Shown here: positions 5,840 to 56,920 of the stretch, in pieces
Numbering within the stretch: the stretch's first letter is position 1
Layout of the letters: every line of letters starts with the position of its first letter
Origin: an uncultured Acidobacteriota bacterium
GTDB lineage: Bacteria > Acidobacteriota > Terriglobia > Terriglobales > Acidobacteriaceae
DNA: 64,000 bases
Direction of reading: 5' to 3'
NCBI GenBank assembly: GCA_963757135.1
Contig: CAVWQE010000008.1
Coordinates: 469,167-533,166 of the forward strand
The notes under the pieces: model-generated
Database searches by the model: none
What the model was told of the DNA's origin: nothing
The model's input: the letters and a program-made list of their open reading frames with translations, nothing else
Position numbers and translations under genes: made by a program

Positions 5840-7087
5840 TCAGCGCTGAAAGATGTGCGCTCCCGCCGCCACATCAGATTCATGAATCACAATGTCTCCG
5901 CCGTTAGTGGTTGATTGCAGCGGCAGGGGATTGCAGCCTCCGGGAGTGCCTACGGATTGGGGGTTGATCGGCGCGGCGCAGTTCTTGCAGACCAGCCCAT
6001 TCGGCCCCTTGAAGAAGCCGACCGGGCCGCAGATCTGACAGGCGTCAAATACCGCGACAACTTTGCCGTCCGGCTTTTGATAAAGCAAGAAGCGAATCTC
6101 GGTCCCGTTCTCGTGGACTGAGAAGCGATGTAGATCGCCGTCAGAAACTTGCCCCAATGGAATATTTGCGACGCCGTTGACAAAGCTGACCGGAGTCGCC
6201 GGAGAAAGCTGGCTCGTGCTCTTGGCGTAAATAAATTCGGCGGTGACCAGCATGATGAATACGAACGAAGTTACGTAGACAGACATCGTCCATAGGCGCT
6301 CACGCCGCGCAGTCCAGGCGGCTTTCCGCTTTTCTGCGGAAGTCTCAGGCACTGGCGCAGGCTGACGGCGCTTGGCATCGAACAGCAACATCAGTGCCGC
6401 CAGAGCGAGGATTAGAACGATAAAGAACCATTCGTTGCTCACGATGGGCCCAATCAACGCCATCTCTTCTTTGGAAGAGGGAAGCACGCCGTTTTCTGAG
6501 AGCTCGTGCAGTCCGGAGATGATCAACTGGCCAGCAACGAGGAACAAAATCACCGTGGTGACGCGGAAAAACTTTTGCAGATTAATGCGGACGCTGCCTT
6601 TAACAAACATCACTCCGAACAGCACTGCCGCGAAGATGCCGGCAAGGGTTCCGATAAAGCTGAGAAGCGCGCTGGAGTTCAGAGTCACGGCAGCGAGGAA
6701 CAGAACAGTTTCCGCGCCTTCACGCAAGATCATCAGAAAGACAAACAGGAACACGCCGATCTGCGAACCGCGGCTGGTCAATGTACCCAGCTTGCCTTCG
6801 ATCTCGCCTTTCATCTTCTTGCCGGTTCGGATCATAAAGATGATCATGGTGACGACGAAGAAAGCAGCCGCCAGCATGACCCAGCCTTCGAAGATGTCTT
6901 CATTCAGTTGCAGGCGAGACAGGGCAATAGCGACGCCGATACTGGCAATGAAGGCAGCACCGAGTCCAAAAAAGACGGAGCGGCGGAGGTCCGGCCTTTG
7001 GACCTTATTCAGATACGCGAGCGTAATGCCGACGATGAGCGCGGCTTCGACGCCTTCGCGCAGAGTGACAATAAAAGCTTCGAGCAA
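5840..7087 (-). CDS. FTR1-family iron permease fused to a Cys-rich DUF2318-like C-terminal domain
   Basis: Two REXXE motifs (LREGVEAALIV, LREGAETVLFL) in a multi-TM N-terminal half. The C-terminal half has FDACQICGPVGF...CKNCAAPINPQSVGTPGGCNPLP. TTG start. Confidence 0.8.
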   Translation of the reverse strand: MLEAFIVTLREGVEAALIVGITLAYLNKVQRPDLRRSVFFGLGAAFIASIGVAIALSRLQLNEDIFEGWVMLAAAFFVVTMIIFMIRTGKKMKGEIEGKLGTLTSRGSQIGVFLFVFLMILREGAETVLFLAAVTLNSSALLSFIGTLAGIFAAVLFGVMFVKGSVRINLQKFFRVTTVILFLVAGQLIISGLHELSENGVLPSSKEEMALIGPIVSNEWFFIVLILALAALMLLFDAKRRQPAPVPETSAEKRKAAWTARRERLWTMSVYVTSFVFIMLVTAEFIYAKSTSQLSPATPVSFVNGVANIPLGQVSDGDLHRFSVHENGTEIRFLLYQKPDGKVVAVFDACQICGPVGFFKGPNGLVCKNCAAPINPQSVGTPGGCNPLPLQSTTNGGDIVIHESDVAAGAHIFQR

Positions 7088-45160: not shown

Positions 45161-46068
45161 AGGCTCCCAGAGGAAAGAGTGCGCCTCTCGCCGGACTGCG
45201 CGTGCTGGTAGGGCGTGCGCGGCATCAGGCAAGCGCGCTATCTGTGGGATTGCAAGCGTTGGGCGCCGAGGTTATCGAAGTCCCCTTCATCGAGATACGC
45301 CCGCCGCGATCGTACGCAAAACTCGACTCTGCGCTTAAGCGAGCTGCCGAATACGACTGGCTGATTCTGACGAGCGTCAACGGGGTGGATGCGTTGGCCG
45401 CGCGCCTGAAGCGTCTGCACATCAGCGCGCAGAGCTTGAAACACTTGCAGATAGTTGCGATTGGGCCGGCGACGTGTGACGCCATTGAAGCAAGCGGTCT
45501 AACAGTTTCTGTCGTTCCCGAGCGCTATGTCGCCGAATCGGTGGTCGAAAGTTTGCGCGGAATGGCAAGAGAGAAGCGCATCCTGCTGGTCCGCGCGAAA
45601 GTCGCGCGCGACGTGATCCCGCGTGAACTGCGGAAGCTCGGCGCGACAGTGGATGTGGTGGAGGCGTACGAAACGGTGGTGCCAGACGCTTCCCGAAAAG
45701 GGCTGCTCGCGCTAATGACAAACGTAAATCAACGGCCGGACATAGTCTGTTTCACCAGTTCTTCCACGGTCAGAAACTTTGTCGACTTGTTGGTCGCTGC
45801 ACCGAACAGAAATGCCCCGACTAAGCACGGCTTTCGTTCCGGAGGAACGTCTGCCAATAGCCCGGCGCTTCAGCGCCGGGGAAAGATGCCCACCGGATCG
45901 AGTCCCGGAAGGACGACCGATCCCTCGAAGCTTCCGGACGCAATCAAGTTTGCCTCGATTGGCCCCATCACATCCGCGACGCTGCGCGAACTCGGGCTGC
46001 CGGTTCACATCGAAGCGGAGGAATACACGATTCCGGGGTTGATTCAGGCGATTAAGAGCGCGCTCTAA
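45157..46068 (+). CDS. hemD: Uroporphyrinogen-III synthase, carrying an approximately 45-aa low-complexity insertion
   Basis: LAGLRVLVGRA, DWLILTSVNGV, FTSSSTVRNFV, IGPITSATLRELGL. ATGA overlap with paiB. Confidence 0.8.
   Translation: MKAPRGKSAPLAGLRVLVGRARHQASALSVGLQALGAEVIEVPFIEIRPPRSYAKLDSALKRAAEYDWLILTSVNGVDALAARLKRLHISAQSLKHLQIVAIGPATCDAIEASGLTVSVVPERYVAESVVESLRGMAREKRILLVRAKVARDVIPRELRKLGATVDVVEAYETVVPDASRKGLLALMTNVNQRPDIVCFTSSSTVRNFVDLLVAAPNRNAPTKHGFRSGGTSANSPALQRRGKMPTGSSPGRTTDPSKLPDAIKFASIGPITSATLRELGLPVHIEAEEYTIPGLIQAIKSAL
45800..45940. repeat. Palindrome-rich repeat-like segment lying in frame inside hemD
   Basis: cgttcc-gga-ggaacg (45835-45849), cccggcgc-ttca-gcgccggg (45861-45880), ggatcg...cgatcc (45893-45923). 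It encodes HGFRSGGTSANSPALQRRGKMPTGSSPGRTTD. Confidence 0.6.
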
Positions 46069-54712: not shown

Positions 54713-54719
54713 CGAAAAA

Positions 54720-54861
54720 CTTCTTTTCCACGGATAAACACGGATGACGCGGATCTAAGATCTTAAAAGTGCGAGCTGGCACGCTTTCTAAAGTGATTTT
54801 TATTTCTGCGCTCTTTCGCTTACTTAATCCGCGTCATCTGTGTTCATCCGCGGAAGAGAAG
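54720..54861. mobile_element. MITE/REP-like element with approximately 35-bp imperfect terminal inverted repeats
   Basis: Left arm cttcttttccacggataaacacggatgacgcggat and right arm atccgcgtcatctgtgttcatccgcggaagagaag, flanking an AT-richer core of about 72 nt. It sits between the ABC exporter and the methyltransferase gene. Confidence 0.6.
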
Positions 54862-54932
54862 TAGCTGTGTCGCGGGTCAATTGTCAGCCAATCCTGACAT
54901 GCCTGCACACTCAATCCTTTACAATCCAGCCC

Positions 54933-55820
54933 ATGCAGCGACGGCCCACGCACGAACTACTGGACGATGACTCCGGTACTCCGAAGGAAGTTGCTGATTC
55001 GCTGCTCGACCTGCGCTGGTTCAACCGCTGGTTTGGAGGCATTGCCACTACCCGCGCCCTGATTCAGACGGTCGCCCGCAAGACCGGCAAATCAGAATTC
55101 TCCCTCCTGGAAGTTGCGGCCGGCGACGGTTCTTTAATGCAAGCCGTCTGCACCAGCTTGCAAAGCAACGGAGTCCGGTTGAACATAACCTTGTTAGACC
55201 GCGCTCCCTCGCACCTTCCCGCGCTTGCGACTTCAGATCACAACGGAAACTCCTCGGCCAGCCCGGCTAATGCTCGCGTGGGCCAAGATGCTCGTGTGGG
55301 TCGGACATTCTTGTCCGACGCCGTTGGTGTTGGGGTTGGGGCTCAAGATCAAAAGCAAGATCAAAATCAAAAGCGTCGGACAAGAATGTCCGACCCACAC
55401 GAGCATCTTGGCCCACACGAGCCGAATGCTTTCAGCAGAGCCGTCGTTGCCGATGCTCTCAGCCTTCCGTTCCCCGACTCGGCTTTCGACCTGATTTCGT
55501 GCTCCCTCTTCGTCCACCACTTATCGCCGGATCATGTCACGACGTTTGCCCGCGAAAGTCTCCGCGTATGCCGCCACGCTGTCCTGGTGCACGATTTGGT
55601 GCGCAGTCCTCTGCACCTGGCATTTGCTTACGCAGGGAAGCCGCTGTATCGCAGCCGTCTGACGCGCAATGATGCGCCGGCATCCGTGCGTCAGGCCTAC
55701 ACCATCGACGAGATGAAACAGTTTTTTCGCGCCGCAGGTGTGGCCAGCGTAGACGCGCAGACGCACTACTTTTATCGCATGGGCGTGATTGCCTGGAAGG
55801 GAAGCGACCCGCAGGCATGA
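54933..55820 (+). CDS. Class I SAM-dependent methyltransferase containing an in-frame hairpin-element insertion
   Basis: Motif I LLEVAAGDGSL, then LLDR, and after the insertion ADALSLPFPDSAFDLISCSLFVHHL. ATG at 54933. Confidence 0.7.
   Translation: MQRRPTHELLDDDSGTPKEVADSLLDLRWFNRWFGGIATTRALIQTVARKTGKSEFSLLEVAAGDGSLMQAVCTSLQSNGVRLNITLLDRAPSHLPALATSDHNGNSSASPANARVGQDARVGRTFLSDAVGVGVGAQDQKQDQNQKRRTRMSDPHEHLGPHEPNAFSRAVVADALSLPFPDSAFDLISCSLFVHHLSPDHVTTFARESLRVCRHAVLVHDLVRSPLHLAFAYAGKPLYRSRLTRNDAPASVRQAYTIDEMKQFFRAAGVASVDAQTHYFYRMGVIAWKGSDPQA
55273..55423. repeat. Near-perfect inverted repeat (49-nt arms, 53-nt spacer) inside the methyltransferase CDS
   Basis: gctcgCgtgggccaagatgctcgtgtgggtcggacattcttgtccgacg against the reverse complement of 55375-55423 matches at 48 of 49 positions. 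Each arm also holds an internal palindrome gtcggaca-ttct-tgtccgac. Confidence 0.9.
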
Positions 55821-56920
55821 TTTATGACCTGATTGTAATCGGGGGCGGGCCCGCCGGTTGCGCAGCCGCGATTTCGAGGGCGCGAGGGGGTGCAGGTGTC
55901 CTGCTGCTGGAGCGAGGGCATTTTCCTCGACATAAAGTCTGCGGCGAGTTTGTTTCAGCGGAGTCACTCGAACTTCTCGAGACTCTACTAGCAGCCGATT
56001 TTCGCACGTTAATGACAACCGCGCCGCGTATCTCGACCGGTCGAATCTTTGCCGACGGAGCGGAGATTCCGGCCGAGATCAATCCTCCCGCAGCAAGCAT
56101 TGCCCGCTATGATCTCGATGCTGCGTTGTGGAACTCCGCGATTCAGAGCGGAGTAGACGCGTTAGAAGACTGCACGGTGAAGTCGGTGGCGCGCAGTGGT
56201 CCCCGACTCTTCCAAGTGGCGACACAATCGGGCGCATTCGAAGCCCGAGCCCTGGTCAACGCCACCGGCCGCTGGTCTTTCCTTACCGCCCCATCCACCC
56301 GCGCGCGTGCCGCGAATAGCCGCTGGATTGGAGTAAAGGCCCATTTTCGCGAAGCAGCCGCGGCGGCATCGGTGGACCTGTACTTTTTCCCTGGAGGATA
56401 TTGCGGAGTACAACCGGTCAGTGCACCGGTGAAGGGATCGAAAGGGATTATCAACGCATGCGCCATGGTGAAAGCCGATGTCGCCACCGACCTGGCCAAG
56501 ATTTTTCGATGTCATCCGGCTTTATACGCGCGCAGCCGGAATTGGGAGCCCGTCATGCAGCCGGTCAGCACCTCGCCGCTGATTTTTCACGAACCGGAGC
56601 CTGTGCAGGGTGACATCTTGCAAGCTGGCGACTCGGCCACTTTCGTGGATCCCTTCATCGGTGACGGCATCTCACTCGCCCTGCGAAGCGGCACACTGGC
56701 GGCAGAGTGCCTTGGCCCGCTCTTCACCGGCGAATGCACTCTCAAAATGGCGGCCGCAGAATATGCCAGCCAATATCGCCGCCAGTTTGCACCGGTGTTT
56801 CGAGCCTCGTCCCACCTGCGTAACTTCCTTAAGCTTCCCGGCCTGGTGCGCCGTCCCGTGATGTCAATTCTCCAGAGAACGCCGGCGATTACGCGGCACT
56901 TGGTCAGAATGACCCGCTAG
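55817..56920 (+). CDS. FAD-dependent oxidoreductase (geranylgeranyl reductase-like family)
   Basis: DLIVIGGGPAGCAAA dinucleotide fold, GDSATFVDPFIGDGI motif, and an ATGA overlap with the upstream methyltransferase. Confidence 0.75.
   Translation: MIYDLIVIGGGPAGCAAAISRARGGAGVLLLERGHFPRHKVCGEFVSAESLELLETLLAADFRTLMTTAPRISTGRIFADGAEIPAEINPPAASIARYDLDAALWNSAIQSGVDALEDCTVKSVARSGPRLFQVATQSGAFEARALVNATGRWSFLTAPSTRARAANSRWIGVKAHFREAAAAASVDLYFFPGGYCGVQPVSAPVKGSKGIINACAMVKADVATDLAKIFRCHPALYARSRNWEPVMQPVSTSPLIFHEPEPVQGDILQAGDSATFVDPFIGDGISLALRSGTLAAECLGPLFTGECTLKMAAAEYASQYRRQFAPVFRASSHLRNFLKLPGLVRRPVMSILQRTPAITRHLVRMTR

What the first reader, a model, noticed from the sequence alone, without database searches (positions are those of the whole stretch)
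55273..55423. 151-nt hairpin element with 49-nt arms kept in frame inside a SAM-methyltransferase gene
Positions 55273-55321 and 55375-55423 are reverse complements of each other (48 of 49), separated by a 53-nt spacer. Each arm also contains its own palindrome (gtcggaca-ttct-tgtccgac). The element lies between methyltransferase motif I (LLEVAAGDG, LLDR) and the ADALSLPFPDSAFDL block, which would be a surface loop of the Rossmann fold. The reading frame stays open through it and adds about 50 to 60 low-complexity residues (..ARVGQDARVGRTFLSDAVGVGVGAQDQKQDQNQKRRTRMSDPHEHLGPHE..). This looks like a REP/MITE-type element that inserted into a coding region without breaking it. The open questions are whether the protein tolerates the insert, whether the gene is dying, and whether the mRNA hairpin serves a regulatory or processing role.
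Basis: seen in the sequence. Interest (0 to 1): 0.7.

Follow-up and report, generated by a model that had tools for sequence, protein, structure and literature searches.

The report
In-frame REPIN hairpin inside methyltransferase gene
A mobile hairpin repeat (a REP doublet, or REPIN) common in soil Acidobacteria sits in frame in a surface loop of a working methyltransferase gene and has been inherited for a very long time; this kind of event is already known, but this is a clean example.

Summary
The hairpin is real: 61-nt arms, 92% complementary, RNA fold -119.9 kcal/mol, z = -14.

- **What it is.** It is one copy of a repeat family found in at least 55 Terriglobia MAG assemblies. The unit is GTGTGG-GTCGGACA-NNNN-TGTCCGAC, a REP with a GTGG head. 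Units occur as convergent inverted doublets (40 against 1), have no target-site duplication and are mostly intergenic. In one MAG a REP-associated tyrosine transposase is flanked by a close variant.
- **Where it sits.** Insert-free homologues have a 7-residue beta2-beta3 loop here. Carriers have 55-88 residues, predicted disordered.
- **State of the gene.** It is alive: flank dN/dS is 0.07-0.18. Shared junctions and spacer features point to an old, inherited insertion (dS 0.6-2.6). Several relatives have lost it in frame.
- **Conservation.** The 28-nt arms are about 91% identical among orthologues. Flank third codon positions are 55% identical. The constraint is therefore on the nucleotides, not the peptide. 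Formal covariation is not significant.
- **Hotspot.** A second, unrelated palindromic repeat occupies the same loop in other lineages.

Intragenic REPs are already documented, so this is a new member of a known kind, of moderate interest.

The parts
54933..55820 (+). Host gene: class I SAM-dependent methyltransferase, 295 aa. The ATG at 54933 is chosen by alignment with orthologues; the ORF itself opens at GTG 54840.
   Evidence: ORF list. Pfam Methyltransf_11/25 on the C-terminal half only. 4058 homologues. AF2 model with a Rossmann core at pLDDT 80-96. Foldseek hits to BelI, CysG, Coq5 and CmoA. Flank dN/dS 0.07-0.18.
55272..55422 (.). The whole hairpin element: a REP doublet (REPIN-like) including the duplicated tails.
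   Evidence: 61-nt arms, 92% complementary. RNA fold -119.9 kcal/mol, z = -14.
55294..55321 (+). Left REP arm, GTGTGGGTCGGACATTCTTGTCCGACGC: GTGG head plus an 8-bp stem and 4-nt loop (local palindrome 55300-55319).
   Evidence: Matches the family consensus. 0 mismatches to the right arm.
55322..55372 (+). Spacer between the REP arms. It is a degenerate continuation of the palindrome, T/G-rich on the left and A/C-rich on the right.
   Evidence: Spacer identity among orthologues is 73% against 91% for the arms. Orthologues share the derived motif GTTGGTGTTG, which is absent from the family consensus.
55373..55400 (-). Right REP arm, GCGTCGGACAAGAATGTCCGACCCACAC: the same unit in the opposite orientation (local palindrome 55375-55394).
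55270..55305 (+). Left tail: two 18-nt (6-codon) tandem units, ATGCTCGCGTGGGCCAAG / ATGCTCGTGTGGGTCGGA. They repeat the REP head and extend the hairpin.
   Evidence: D4. The number of units per side varies from 1 to 3 among orthologues.
55394..55429 (+). Right tail: the mirror-image 18-nt units CCCACACGAGCATCTTGG / CCCACACGAGCCGAATGC.
   Evidence: D7.
55817..56920 (+). Downstream gene: FAD-dependent oxidoreductase of the geranylgeranyl-reductase type. Its ATG overlaps the methyltransferase stop codon by 4 nt (ATGA), so it is probably co-transcribed and translationally coupled.
   Evidence: coordinates; families. The same gene pair occurs in the orthologous loci.

Best explanation
The 151-nt hairpin is a REPIN-type element: two inverted copies of a REP unit (head GTGTGG, 8-bp stem GTCGGACA/TGTCCGAC, 4-nt loop) joined by a spacer.

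Shown:
- The unit belongs to a family dispersed through Terriglobia (Acidobacteriota) genomes.
- The copy sits in the DNA encoding the normally 7-residue beta2-beta3 connecting loop of a class I SAM methyltransferase.
- Its length keeps the reading frame and the frame in use has no stop codon. It is translated as a 55-88-residue loop that is predicted to be disordered.
- The enzyme and the translationally coupled downstream oxidoreductase gene stay under purifying selection.
- Later changes are in-frame only: 18-nt tail duplications, which are mirrored on both arms in the window's clade, and partial or near-complete deletions of the hairpin in several close relatives.
- The two REP arms stay close to the family consensus and complementary to each other, far better than silent sites of the same gene.

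Inferred:
- The family is mobilised in trans by a REP-associated tyrosine (HUH/Y1) transposase acting on single-stranded hairpin DNA. This follows from the IS200/IS605-RAYT paradigm, the absence of target-site duplications and one RAYT flanked by a close variant of the repeat.
- The copy has been inherited vertically since an old insertion. This follows from shared junctions and shared spacer features.
- The arms are kept alike by arm-to-arm templated repair and/or gene conversion from other genomic copies, and possibly by selection on the REP sequence itself.
- The copy is a tolerated passenger in a permissive loop. There is no evidence that it was built for a function.
For: **Repeat family**
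- An exact-pattern scan of species-representative genomes gave at least 117 stretches, all but two from Acidobacteriota MAGs.
- These hold 187 units in 58 sources.
- Convergent doublets outnumber divergent ones 40 to 1, with 25-164-nt spacers.
- The GT head outside the search pattern is conserved (162 and 174 of 187 units). The local stem covaries T-A (169) with G-C (11).
- There is no target-site duplication.
- Doublet lengths are spread evenly over the three classes mod 3 (11/14/15), so the family is not designed for coding.

**Transposase link**
- L088 6597-7071 encodes a protein scoring 94 bits on NCBIfam NF047646, REP-associated tyrosine transposase (cut-off 80), and 24.8 bits on Pfam Y1_Tnp.
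- It is flanked on both sides by doublets of GTAGGGCGGACACTCYTGTCCGCC. That differs from the family unit at 3 of 24 positions, two of them compensatory.

**Insertion site**
- 50 of 66 homologue loci with a recognisable loop have a 7-residue loop, and four more have 5-6 residues. Carriers have 55-88 residues.
- In the AF2 model the core is confident and residues 98-164 have pLDDT below 50 with no secondary structure.

**Orthology and age**
- Synteny is the same. Left and right junctions are the same and the spacer shares the derived motif GTTGGTGTTG.
- dS between the window and the other carriers is 0.6-2.6, with dN/dS 0.07-0.18.

**Nucleotide-level constraint**
- The arms are 91% identical pairwise, the spacer 73%, the flanks 76% and flank third codon positions 55%.
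- Only 4 of 19 third positions in the arms vary, against 190 of 207 in the flanks.
- The arms are perfectly complementary over 28 nt in 5 of 12 orthologues.

**Losses**
- L208 keeps only the base of the stem (..GCGGGC|GACCCACAC..). L207 keeps GACCC. L121 keeps only the left tails.

**Other in-frame copies of the family**
- A 42-residue insertion in ClpB relative to PDB 6dju.
- The N-terminal linker of ParB, and a full doublet in a P-loop protein.

**Literature**
- REPIN definition and compensatory changes: PMC3116915. Intragenic GTAG/GTGG REP dimers encoding 20-30 residues: PMC3733652.
Against: - The transposase link rests on one MAG and on a variant of the repeat. No RAYT and no second copy of the repeat lie in the 64-kb window, and the source genome could not be examined.
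- Transposition itself is not shown.
- Formal covariation in the long hairpin among orthologues is weak. Only 4 pairs change on both sides, 77 of 500 shuffles reach the observed number of cells with a change on both sides (105 of 500 reach the covariation score), and the changes may reflect one or two events.
- In a neighbour-joining tree of the masked protein, REPIN-bearing, second-element-bearing and empty alleles are interleaved in one clade. P0026 looks recombinant with a P0061-like C-terminus. The history therefore includes multiple losses, recombination or re-insertions, not a single clean event.
- A whole-library search with the 56-residue insert peptide found only 5 proteins. Full in-frame doublets in this frame are therefore rare, unlike the Rickettsia elements.
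- The cause of the conservation of the arms is not resolved.
Confidence: 0.85

Rival explanations
1. Co-opted functional element. The intragenic hairpin, or its REP arms, is kept by selection because it does something for the host at the RNA or DNA level. It could be a double-stranded RNA target for RNase III that couples mRNA decay to ribosome traffic, a translational pause site between the two halves of the enzyme, or a binding site for a REP-binding protein. This reading is compatible with a REPIN origin.
For: - The arms are far more conserved than silent sites of the same gene over dS above 1, and the constraint is independent of codon position.
- The hairpin is retained in all 12 carriers examined (-75 to -162 kcal/mol for the whole loop-coding region).
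- The loop-position pairs 15/105 and 18/102 change together between clades.
Against: - Several close relatives deleted the hairpin in frame and keep an intact gene under the same synteny. Distant homologues never had it.
- Another lineage carries a different repeat at the same spot, which suggests a permissive site rather than a purpose-built device.
- Covariation is not statistically supported.
- No known RNA family matches; the only hit is a sub-threshold match to a plant miRNA hairpin.
- The same conservation could come from gene conversion by other copies, or from arm-to-arm templated repair.
Confidence: 0.2
2. Recurrent independent insertions. The loop-coding DNA is a preferred target, and the carriers acquired or refreshed their copies separately and recently. 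That would explain why the arms look young.
For: - The arms are close to the family consensus.
- Loop variants (TTCT, TTCC, CTCT) differ between gene clades and also between genomes in the family at large.
- Two unrelated repeat families occupy the same loop.
- Presence and absence are interleaved in the tree.
Against: - All carriers share the same left junction (GCGACCRATGC..) and right junction (CCCACACGAGCCGRRTGCWTTCAGC).
- They share spacer features (GTTGGTGTTG) that other family members lack. Spacers elsewhere in the family are highly variable.
- The spacer diverges about as much as the gene (73% against 76%), so the insert as a whole is not young.
- Relatives that lack the hairpin carry footprints of its right end.
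Confidence: 0.1
3. Classical MITE: a deletion derivative of a DDE-transposase insertion sequence, with terminal inverted repeats and target-site duplications.
For: The element has long terminal inverted repeats, is small, has no coding capacity of its own and is multi-copy.
Against: - No direct repeat of 5 nt or more flanks any of the 40 doublets at any of five boundary offsets; shorter matches are near the number expected by chance.
- The ends are REP-like stem-loops with a GT[AG]G head.
- Single units and same-orientation arrays also occur.
- The only transposase found next to the repeat is a Y1/RAYT.
Confidence: 0.04
4. Not an insertion: an ancestral, protein-level low-complexity loop that happens to be palindromic, or an assembly artefact.
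For: Many orthologues carry the same segment.
Against: - The same sequence occurs at more than 100 unrelated, mostly intergenic places.
- The ancestral loop is 7 residues.
- Conservation is at the nucleotide level, not the peptide level.
- The segment is present in many independent assemblies from different projects.
Confidence: 0.01

Closest known systems
REPINs (REP doublets forming hairpins) with RAYT transposases; Bertels & Rainey 2011, PMC3116915
   Same: Two inverted REP units, each with its own short palindrome and a conserved head, are joined by a less conserved spacer, and the whole folds into a long hairpin. Doublets predominate, there is no target-site duplication, and the family is dispersed and multi-copy. 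A single Y1/HUH transposase gene is flanked by the repeat. Both sides of the hairpin tend to change together.
   Different: REPINs are described as almost exclusively extragenic (bioRxiv 10.1101/2021.07.10.451892), whereas this copy is translated in frame. The family is from Terriglobia and was not found described in the searched literature. Spacer length is much more variable here (25-164 nt) than in the Pseudomonas families (71 or 110 nt).
Intragenic GTAG/CGTC-tagged REPs; Di Nocera et al. 2013, PMC3733652
   Same: REP monomers and dimers with a GTAG head lie inside ORFs and encode extra residues. The head is GTGG in most Opitutus terrae GTAG-20 elements. That paper also separates acidobacterial Y1 transposases into a distinct group.
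   Different: Those dimers encode 20-30 residues, while this one with its tails adds about 50 and the loop grows by about 65. Here orthologous persistence over dS above 1, arm-specific conservation and repeated in-frame loss are documented for a single locus.
Rickettsia palindromic elements (RPEs); Ogata et al. 2000, as reviewed in PMC10969869
   Same: Palindromic elements of about 100-150 bp are inserted in frame into unrelated housekeeping genes at positions compatible with protein fold and function.
   Different: The taxon and sequence are different. RPEs are very often intragenic, whereas this family is mostly intergenic: a handful of verified genic copies among 133 elements. Only 5 proteins were found with the insert peptide.
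Quasipalindrome correction by intramolecular template switching (established replication-error mechanism; from general knowledge, not tested here)
   Same: It would explain mirrored 18-nt tail duplications on both arms and arms that stay complementary without selection on structure.
   Different: It preserves complementarity but not identity to the family consensus, so it cannot be the whole explanation for the conserved arm sequence.

Membership tests
REP / REPIN-RAYT system | The unit is a short imperfect palindrome (stem-loop) with a conserved 5' GT[AG]G head. | tested here: met
   The consensus is GTGTGG-GTCGGACA-CYCY-TGTCCGAC. The GT preceding the search pattern is conserved in 162 and 174 of 187 units. 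The local stem covaries TA (169) with GC (11).
REP / REPIN-RAYT system | Units occur mainly as inverted doublets whose arms and spacer fold into one hairpin. | tested here: met
   40 convergent doublets against 1 divergent. The window copy folds at -119.9 kcal/mol. Arms within a doublet share the loop variant in 22 of 40 cases against 13.2 +/- 2.7 for shuffled partners.
REP / REPIN-RAYT system | Many dispersed copies per genome, mostly extragenic. | tested here: met
Most elements are not inside long ORFs. Whole-genome counts were not available.
REP / REPIN-RAYT system | A cognate RAYT gene flanked by the same REP. | tested here: inconclusive
   One RAYT (NF047646, 94 bits against a cut-off of 80) in L088 is flanked by doublets of a 3/24-different variant. 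None was found in the other loci or in the window. The window's genome is not available.
REP / REPIN-RAYT system | No target-site duplication (HUH/Y1 chemistry). | tested here: met
   0 of 40 doublets have flanking direct repeats of 5 nt or more at any of five boundary offsets. Shorter matches are close to the number expected by chance.
REP / REPIN-RAYT system | Demonstrated excision or transposition, or cleavage by RAYT. | not testable with these tools
   This needs population sequencing or biochemistry.
Rickettsia palindromic elements (RPE) | Sequence membership in RPE families 1-10 of Rickettsia. | not tested
   No RPE sequences were at hand. The host here is Acidobacteriota (Acido-Lenti-1 RNA in the window), so the relation is by analogy only.
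Rickettsia palindromic elements (RPE) | In-frame insertion at positions compatible with the protein fold. | tested here: met
   Disordered loop between beta2 and beta3. Flanks under purifying selection. ClpB and ParB linker insertions elsewhere in the family.
DDE-type MITE | Target-site duplications and a parent insertion sequence with the same terminal inverted repeats. | tested here: not met
   No target-site duplications. The only adjacent transposase is Y1/RAYT.
Class I SAM-dependent methyltransferase (host gene) | Rossmann-like fold with motif I (GxGxG-type) and an acidic residue at the end of beta2. | tested here: met
   Pfam Methyltransf_11/25. Invariant E60-V-A-A/S-G-x-G66 and L87-x-D89-R90 in alignment A1. 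AF2 core pLDDT 80-96. Foldseek probability 1.0 to BelI, CysG and Coq5.

The most novel reading that the evidence does not exclude
The intragenic REPIN is not just tolerated. Its REP arms are under direct purifying selection at the nucleotide level inside a translated region: 91% identity against 55% at neighbouring silent sites over dS above 1. On this reading the hairpin or REP sequence has a host-level or element-level function that persists in a fixed orthologous copy. Candidates are an RNase III or ribosome-traffic-sensitive control point for the methyltransferase-oxidoreductase operon, or a maintained substrate ('master copy') for the RAYT. Because the copy is embedded in a coding gene, it comes with its own neutral-rate control. 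That makes the long-running question of whether REPINs are selected or merely selfish directly testable.
Probability: 0.2. Interest if true: 0.7.

Novelty: new member of a known kind. Interest (0 to 1): 0.42.

Why it matters
REP and REPIN elements are usually defined as extragenic, and whether their conservation reflects function, ongoing transposition or gene conversion is still debated. This locus is a fixed, orthologous, translated copy. The same gene supplies a silent-site clock, and relatives supply natural deletions and a second repeat family at the same loop.

It shows three things:
- An undescribed REP family spans many Terriglobia.
- A 7-residue enzyme loop can absorb 50-80 residues of repeat-encoded peptide for a very long time.
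- The REP arms, and not the spacer or the peptide, are what is conserved.

For genome annotation it is also a warning. These repeats are open in five of six frames. They create spurious ORFs (P0122, P0124) and split Pfam domain hits.

Tried and rejected
- **Other copies in the window.** None were found with up to 3 mismatches. The family was only seen after the genome scan.
- **Rfam.** No family matched. The only hit was a sub-threshold match to plant MIR904, a generic long hairpin.
- **Covariation for the long hairpin among 12 orthologues.** Not significant. I therefore do not claim selection on RNA structure.
- **Target-site duplications.** None found, so the classical-MITE reading is rejected.
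- **Whole-library search with the 56-residue insert peptide.** Only 5 hits: 2 orthologues, 2 ORFs made of REP arrays and 1 unrelated repeat protein. A Rickettsia-like proteome-wide spread is not supported, although sensitivity for such a short query is low.
- **Other REP copies on the orthologous contigs.** I looked for them to test whether the genic copy tracks its genome's variant. None were present.
- **RAYT search in all fetched loci and the window.** By motif and by phmmer, one clear hit (L088) and one marginal partial hit (L110, E = 0.003).
- **Metagenome scan with the protein.** It returned mostly insert-free homologues. Those were useful for the ancestral loop length, but only 4 carriers came from it.
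- **P0001.** DNA for the closest homologue could not be fetched because the sample file was too large.
- **'Single clean insertion' model.** Softened after the tree showed interleaved states and a probable recombinant.
Full report
**1. Observation**

The region 55272-55422 is a near-perfect inverted repeat. The arms are 55272-55332 and 55362-55422, 61 nt long and 92% complementary. The right-arm coordinates in the finding are shifted by 2 nt and the spacer is 51 nt.

Each arm holds the palindrome GTCGGACA-NNNN-TGTCCGAC. The stretch 55260-55435 folds at -119.9 kcal/mol as RNA, with z = -14.1 and none of 200 shuffles as good. As DNA it folds at -72.7 kcal/mol.

The element lies inside ORF 54933-55820 and keeps the frame open. 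Five of six frames are open across it. No other copy of the arm lies in the window.

**2. The host gene**

The ORF is a class I SAM-dependent methyltransferase. Pfam Methyltransf_11/25 match only profile positions 43-97 because the insert splits the domain. An AlphaFold model built on alignment A1 has a confident Rossmann core (pLDDT 80-96). Residues 98-164, the insert, have pLDDT below 50 and no secondary structure. They lie between strand 82-87 (ITLLDR) and the ADALSLPF block. Foldseek finds BelI, CysG, Coq5 and CmoA.

The stop codon overlaps by 4 nt (ATGA) the start of a geranylgeranyl-reductase-type FAD oxidoreductase. The gene order is ABC transporter, methyltransferase, oxidoreductase, second methyltransferase on the reverse strand, bactofilin. 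It recurs in the orthologous contigs.

**3. A repeat family**

I scanned one genome per species for GTGGGTCGGACANNNNTGTCCGAC. All but two are from Terriglobia or other Acidobacteriota MAGs. The exceptions are one Marivita and one Dormiibacterota.

In these loci I found 187 units. Convergent pairs number 40 and divergent pairs 1, with spacers of 25-164 nt. The consensus is (GT)GTGG-GTCGGACA-CYCY-TGTCCGAC-GCCTTTGACTTTGA..., then a variable low-complexity centre, then the mirror image.

- The GT in front of the search pattern is conserved in 162 and 174 of 187 units. Position 6/23 of the local stem covaries T-A (169) with G-C (11).
- There are no target-site duplications.
- Doublet lengths are spread evenly mod 3 (11/14/15), so nothing suggests design for coding.
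- Arms of one doublet share the loop variant more often than shuffled partners: 22 of 40 against 13.2 +/- 2.7, P = 0.0006. Genome-specific variant frequencies could contribute to this.

**4. Link to a transposase**

L088 6597-7071 encodes a 158-residue protein with the motifs HVHLL and YIGQNP. It scores 94 bits on NCBIfam NF047646, REP-associated tyrosine transposase (cut-off 80), and 24.8 bits on Pfam Y1_Tnp.

It is flanked on both sides by doublets of ATGTAGGGCGGACACTCYTGTCCGCC. The stop codon lies inside the GTAG head of the downstream doublet. This variant differs from the family unit at 3 of 24 positions. Two of those are the compensatory T-A to G-C change that also occurs within the family.

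These features fit the published definition of REPs and REPINs: a GT[AG]G head, inverted doublets forming a hairpin, and a RAYT flanked by the repeat (PMC3116915, PMC3733652). The link rests on one MAG. The window's own genome could not be checked.

**5. The insertion site and its history**

- **Loop length.** Among the 66 homologue loci in which the loop could be delimited, the loop between HLP and (V/I)xADA is 7 residues in 50 (xNGxMxK) and 5-6 residues in four more. Carriers of the element have 55-88 residues.
- **Carriers.** The protein alignment shows the same insert peptide in orthologues of 65-82% identity..ARVGRT[FL]LSDA..QKRRT[RG][MV]SDPHE... DNA from 12 carriers folds into the same hairpin.
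- **Common descent.** All share the left junction (GCGACCRATGC..), the right junction (CCCACACGAGCCGRRTGCWTTCAGC) and a spacer motif (GTTGGTGTTG) absent from the family consensus. This argues for descent from one insertion.
- **Age.** Flank dS between the window and the other carriers is 0.6-2.6, with dN/dS 0.07-0.18. The insertion is old and the gene is functional.
- **Tail repeats.** Between one and three 18-nt (6-codon) tail repeats, each including the REP head, occur on each side. In the window's clade they are mirrored on both arms and extend the hairpin.
- **Losses.** Several close relatives have lost the hairpin in frame. L208 (P0010) keeps only the base of the stem, GCGGGC|GACCCACAC. 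L207 (P0030) keeps GACCC. L121/L122 (P0026) keep only the left tails. P0009 and P0014 have partial deletions.
- **Complications.** A neighbour-joining tree of the masked protein interleaves carriers, empty alleles and carriers of a second element. P0026 shares a C-terminal segment with the insert-free P0061. Losses, recombination and possibly re-insertion have all contributed.

**6. What is conserved**

| Compartment | Mean pairwise identity among the 12 carriers |
|---|---|
| The two 28-nt arms | 91% |
| Spacer | 73% |
| Flanking CDS | 76% |
| Flank third codon positions | 55% |

Only 4 of 19 third-codon positions in the arms vary, against 190 of 207 in the flanks. The variable arm sites are not concentrated at third positions. 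The constraint therefore acts on the nucleotides and not on the peptide.

Five of the 12 carriers have perfectly complementary 28-nt arms. The loop positions occur as TTCT/AGAA, TTCC/GGAA or CTCT/AGAG. The formal count gives 86.9% of cells paired, against 33-45% when the partner is slid. Only 4 pairs change on both sides, and 77 of 500 shuffles reach the observed number of cells with a change on both sides; 105 of 500 reach the covariation score. I therefore do not claim selection on RNA structure.

Three candidate causes could not be separated here:
- arm-to-arm templated repair, which would also explain the mirrored tail duplications;
- gene conversion from other genomic copies;
- direct selection on the REP sequence.

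**7. The loop is a hotspot**

L123 and L124 carry a different palindromic insert at the same place (..SSRAKPNDSQSESSGAVEGP..). L206 carries both inserts. This second insert belongs to another abundant family, TGTCATCCYGAGCGRAG-[variable hairpin]-GCAGTCGARGGACC. It has 49 matches in 25 loci, 22 of them among the 117 unrelated Terriglobia loci from the REP scan.

**8. Other genic copies of the REP family**

- A single unit lies in a 42-residue insertion in ClpB, between the M-domain and NBD2. It has no counterpart in PDB 6dju.
- A unit lies in the N-terminal linker of ParB, and a full doublet in a P-loop protein.
- A unit lies in a Dormiibacterota homoserine dehydrogenase; this one could be a chance match.
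- Most of the 133 elements are intergenic.
- The 56-residue insert peptide finds only 5 proteins in 1.84 billion cluster representatives. Two of them are ORFs made of tandem REP units.

**9. Comparison with what is known**

- The architecture is that of a REPIN (PMC3116915).
- REPINs are described as almost exclusively extragenic (bioRxiv 10.1101/2021.07.10.451892).
- Intragenic GTAG/GTGG REP monomers and dimers have been catalogued, for example in Opitutus terrae and Rickettsia conorii (PMC3733652).
- Rickettsia palindromic elements are the classic in-frame case (reviewed in PMC10969869).
- I found no description of this Terriglobia family in the searched library and no Rfam family.

**10. 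Verdict**

This is a new member of a known kind: an in-frame REPIN in a permissive enzyme loop.

The points that go beyond the textbook case are:
- the depth of orthologous persistence;
- the arm-specific nucleotide conservation, measured against the gene's own silent sites;
- the recurrent in-frame losses;
- the capture of two repeat families by one loop.

Interest is moderate.

Noticed in passing
window 54719-54862: A second, unrelated long inverted repeat lies in the intergenic region between the ABC transporter and the methyltransferase. Its arms are 36 nt and 89% complementary, and the RNA fold is -70.1 kcal/mol (z = -8.4). A similar arm lies about 185 nt upstream of the orthologous gene in L121/L122 and near the contig end upstream of the gene in L199. 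It was not found in the 117 REP-scan loci at up to 6 mismatches. It could be a locus-specific regulatory or terminator element, or a diverged member of another repeat family.
   Followed up: partly
window 45835-45880 (- strand): An Acido-Lenti-1 RNA (Rfam RF01687) scores 45.8 bits against a gathering threshold of 37. This is consistent with an acidobacterial origin of the window.
   Followed up: no
L123 1438-1497, L124 3300-3359, L206 1167-1226; array in L023 4816-5954: A second abundant Terriglobia repeat family has conserved ends and a variable internal hairpin: TGTCATCCYGAGCGRAG ... GCAGTCGARGGACC. It has 49 matches in 25 loci, 22 of them among the 117 REP-scan loci. It is inserted in frame in the same methyltransferase loop in other lineages, and L023 has at least five copies within 1.2 kb.
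   Followed up: partly
L113 4488-4511 (ClpB), L063 5398-5421 (ParB), L017 3066-3152 (P-loop protein): Units of the same REP family are translated in frame inside other conserved genes. The ClpB case is a 42-residue insertion with no counterpart in M. tuberculosis ClpB (6dju). It also contains a PQRARKDGA-type peptide that looks like yet another repeat.
   Followed up: partly
L088 6456-7169: A complete 'REPtron': a RAYT gene (6597-7071) flanked by two REP doublets. Its TAG stop codon lies inside the GTAG head of the downstream doublet.
   Followed up: yes
proteins P0122 and P0124; loci L001 1390-1504, L075 2430-2558, L089 4613-5113: Tandem arrays of REP units in one orientation, with spacing of about 48-50 nt in L001 and L075. 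They are open in several frames and have been called as proteins made only of VGQECPTH / RRTRVSDPH / SDKNVRPT repeats. These are probably spurious gene calls.
   Followed up: no
proteins P0026 and P0061 (alignment A1, columns about 265-300): P0026 groups with the window's clade in its N-terminal half. It shares the segment ALRVCSVAVLIHDLIRSPLHLA with the insert-free, distant P0061. This suggests recombination within the gene near the loop.
   Followed up: no
L206 1227-1262: Between the two inserted elements lies FGKLRAGS (..TTCGGCAAGCTCAGGGCAGGCTC..). A similar CTCAGGGGCAGGCTCTG motif sits inside the spacer of the REP doublet in L082. This may be a third short repeat.
   Followed up: no
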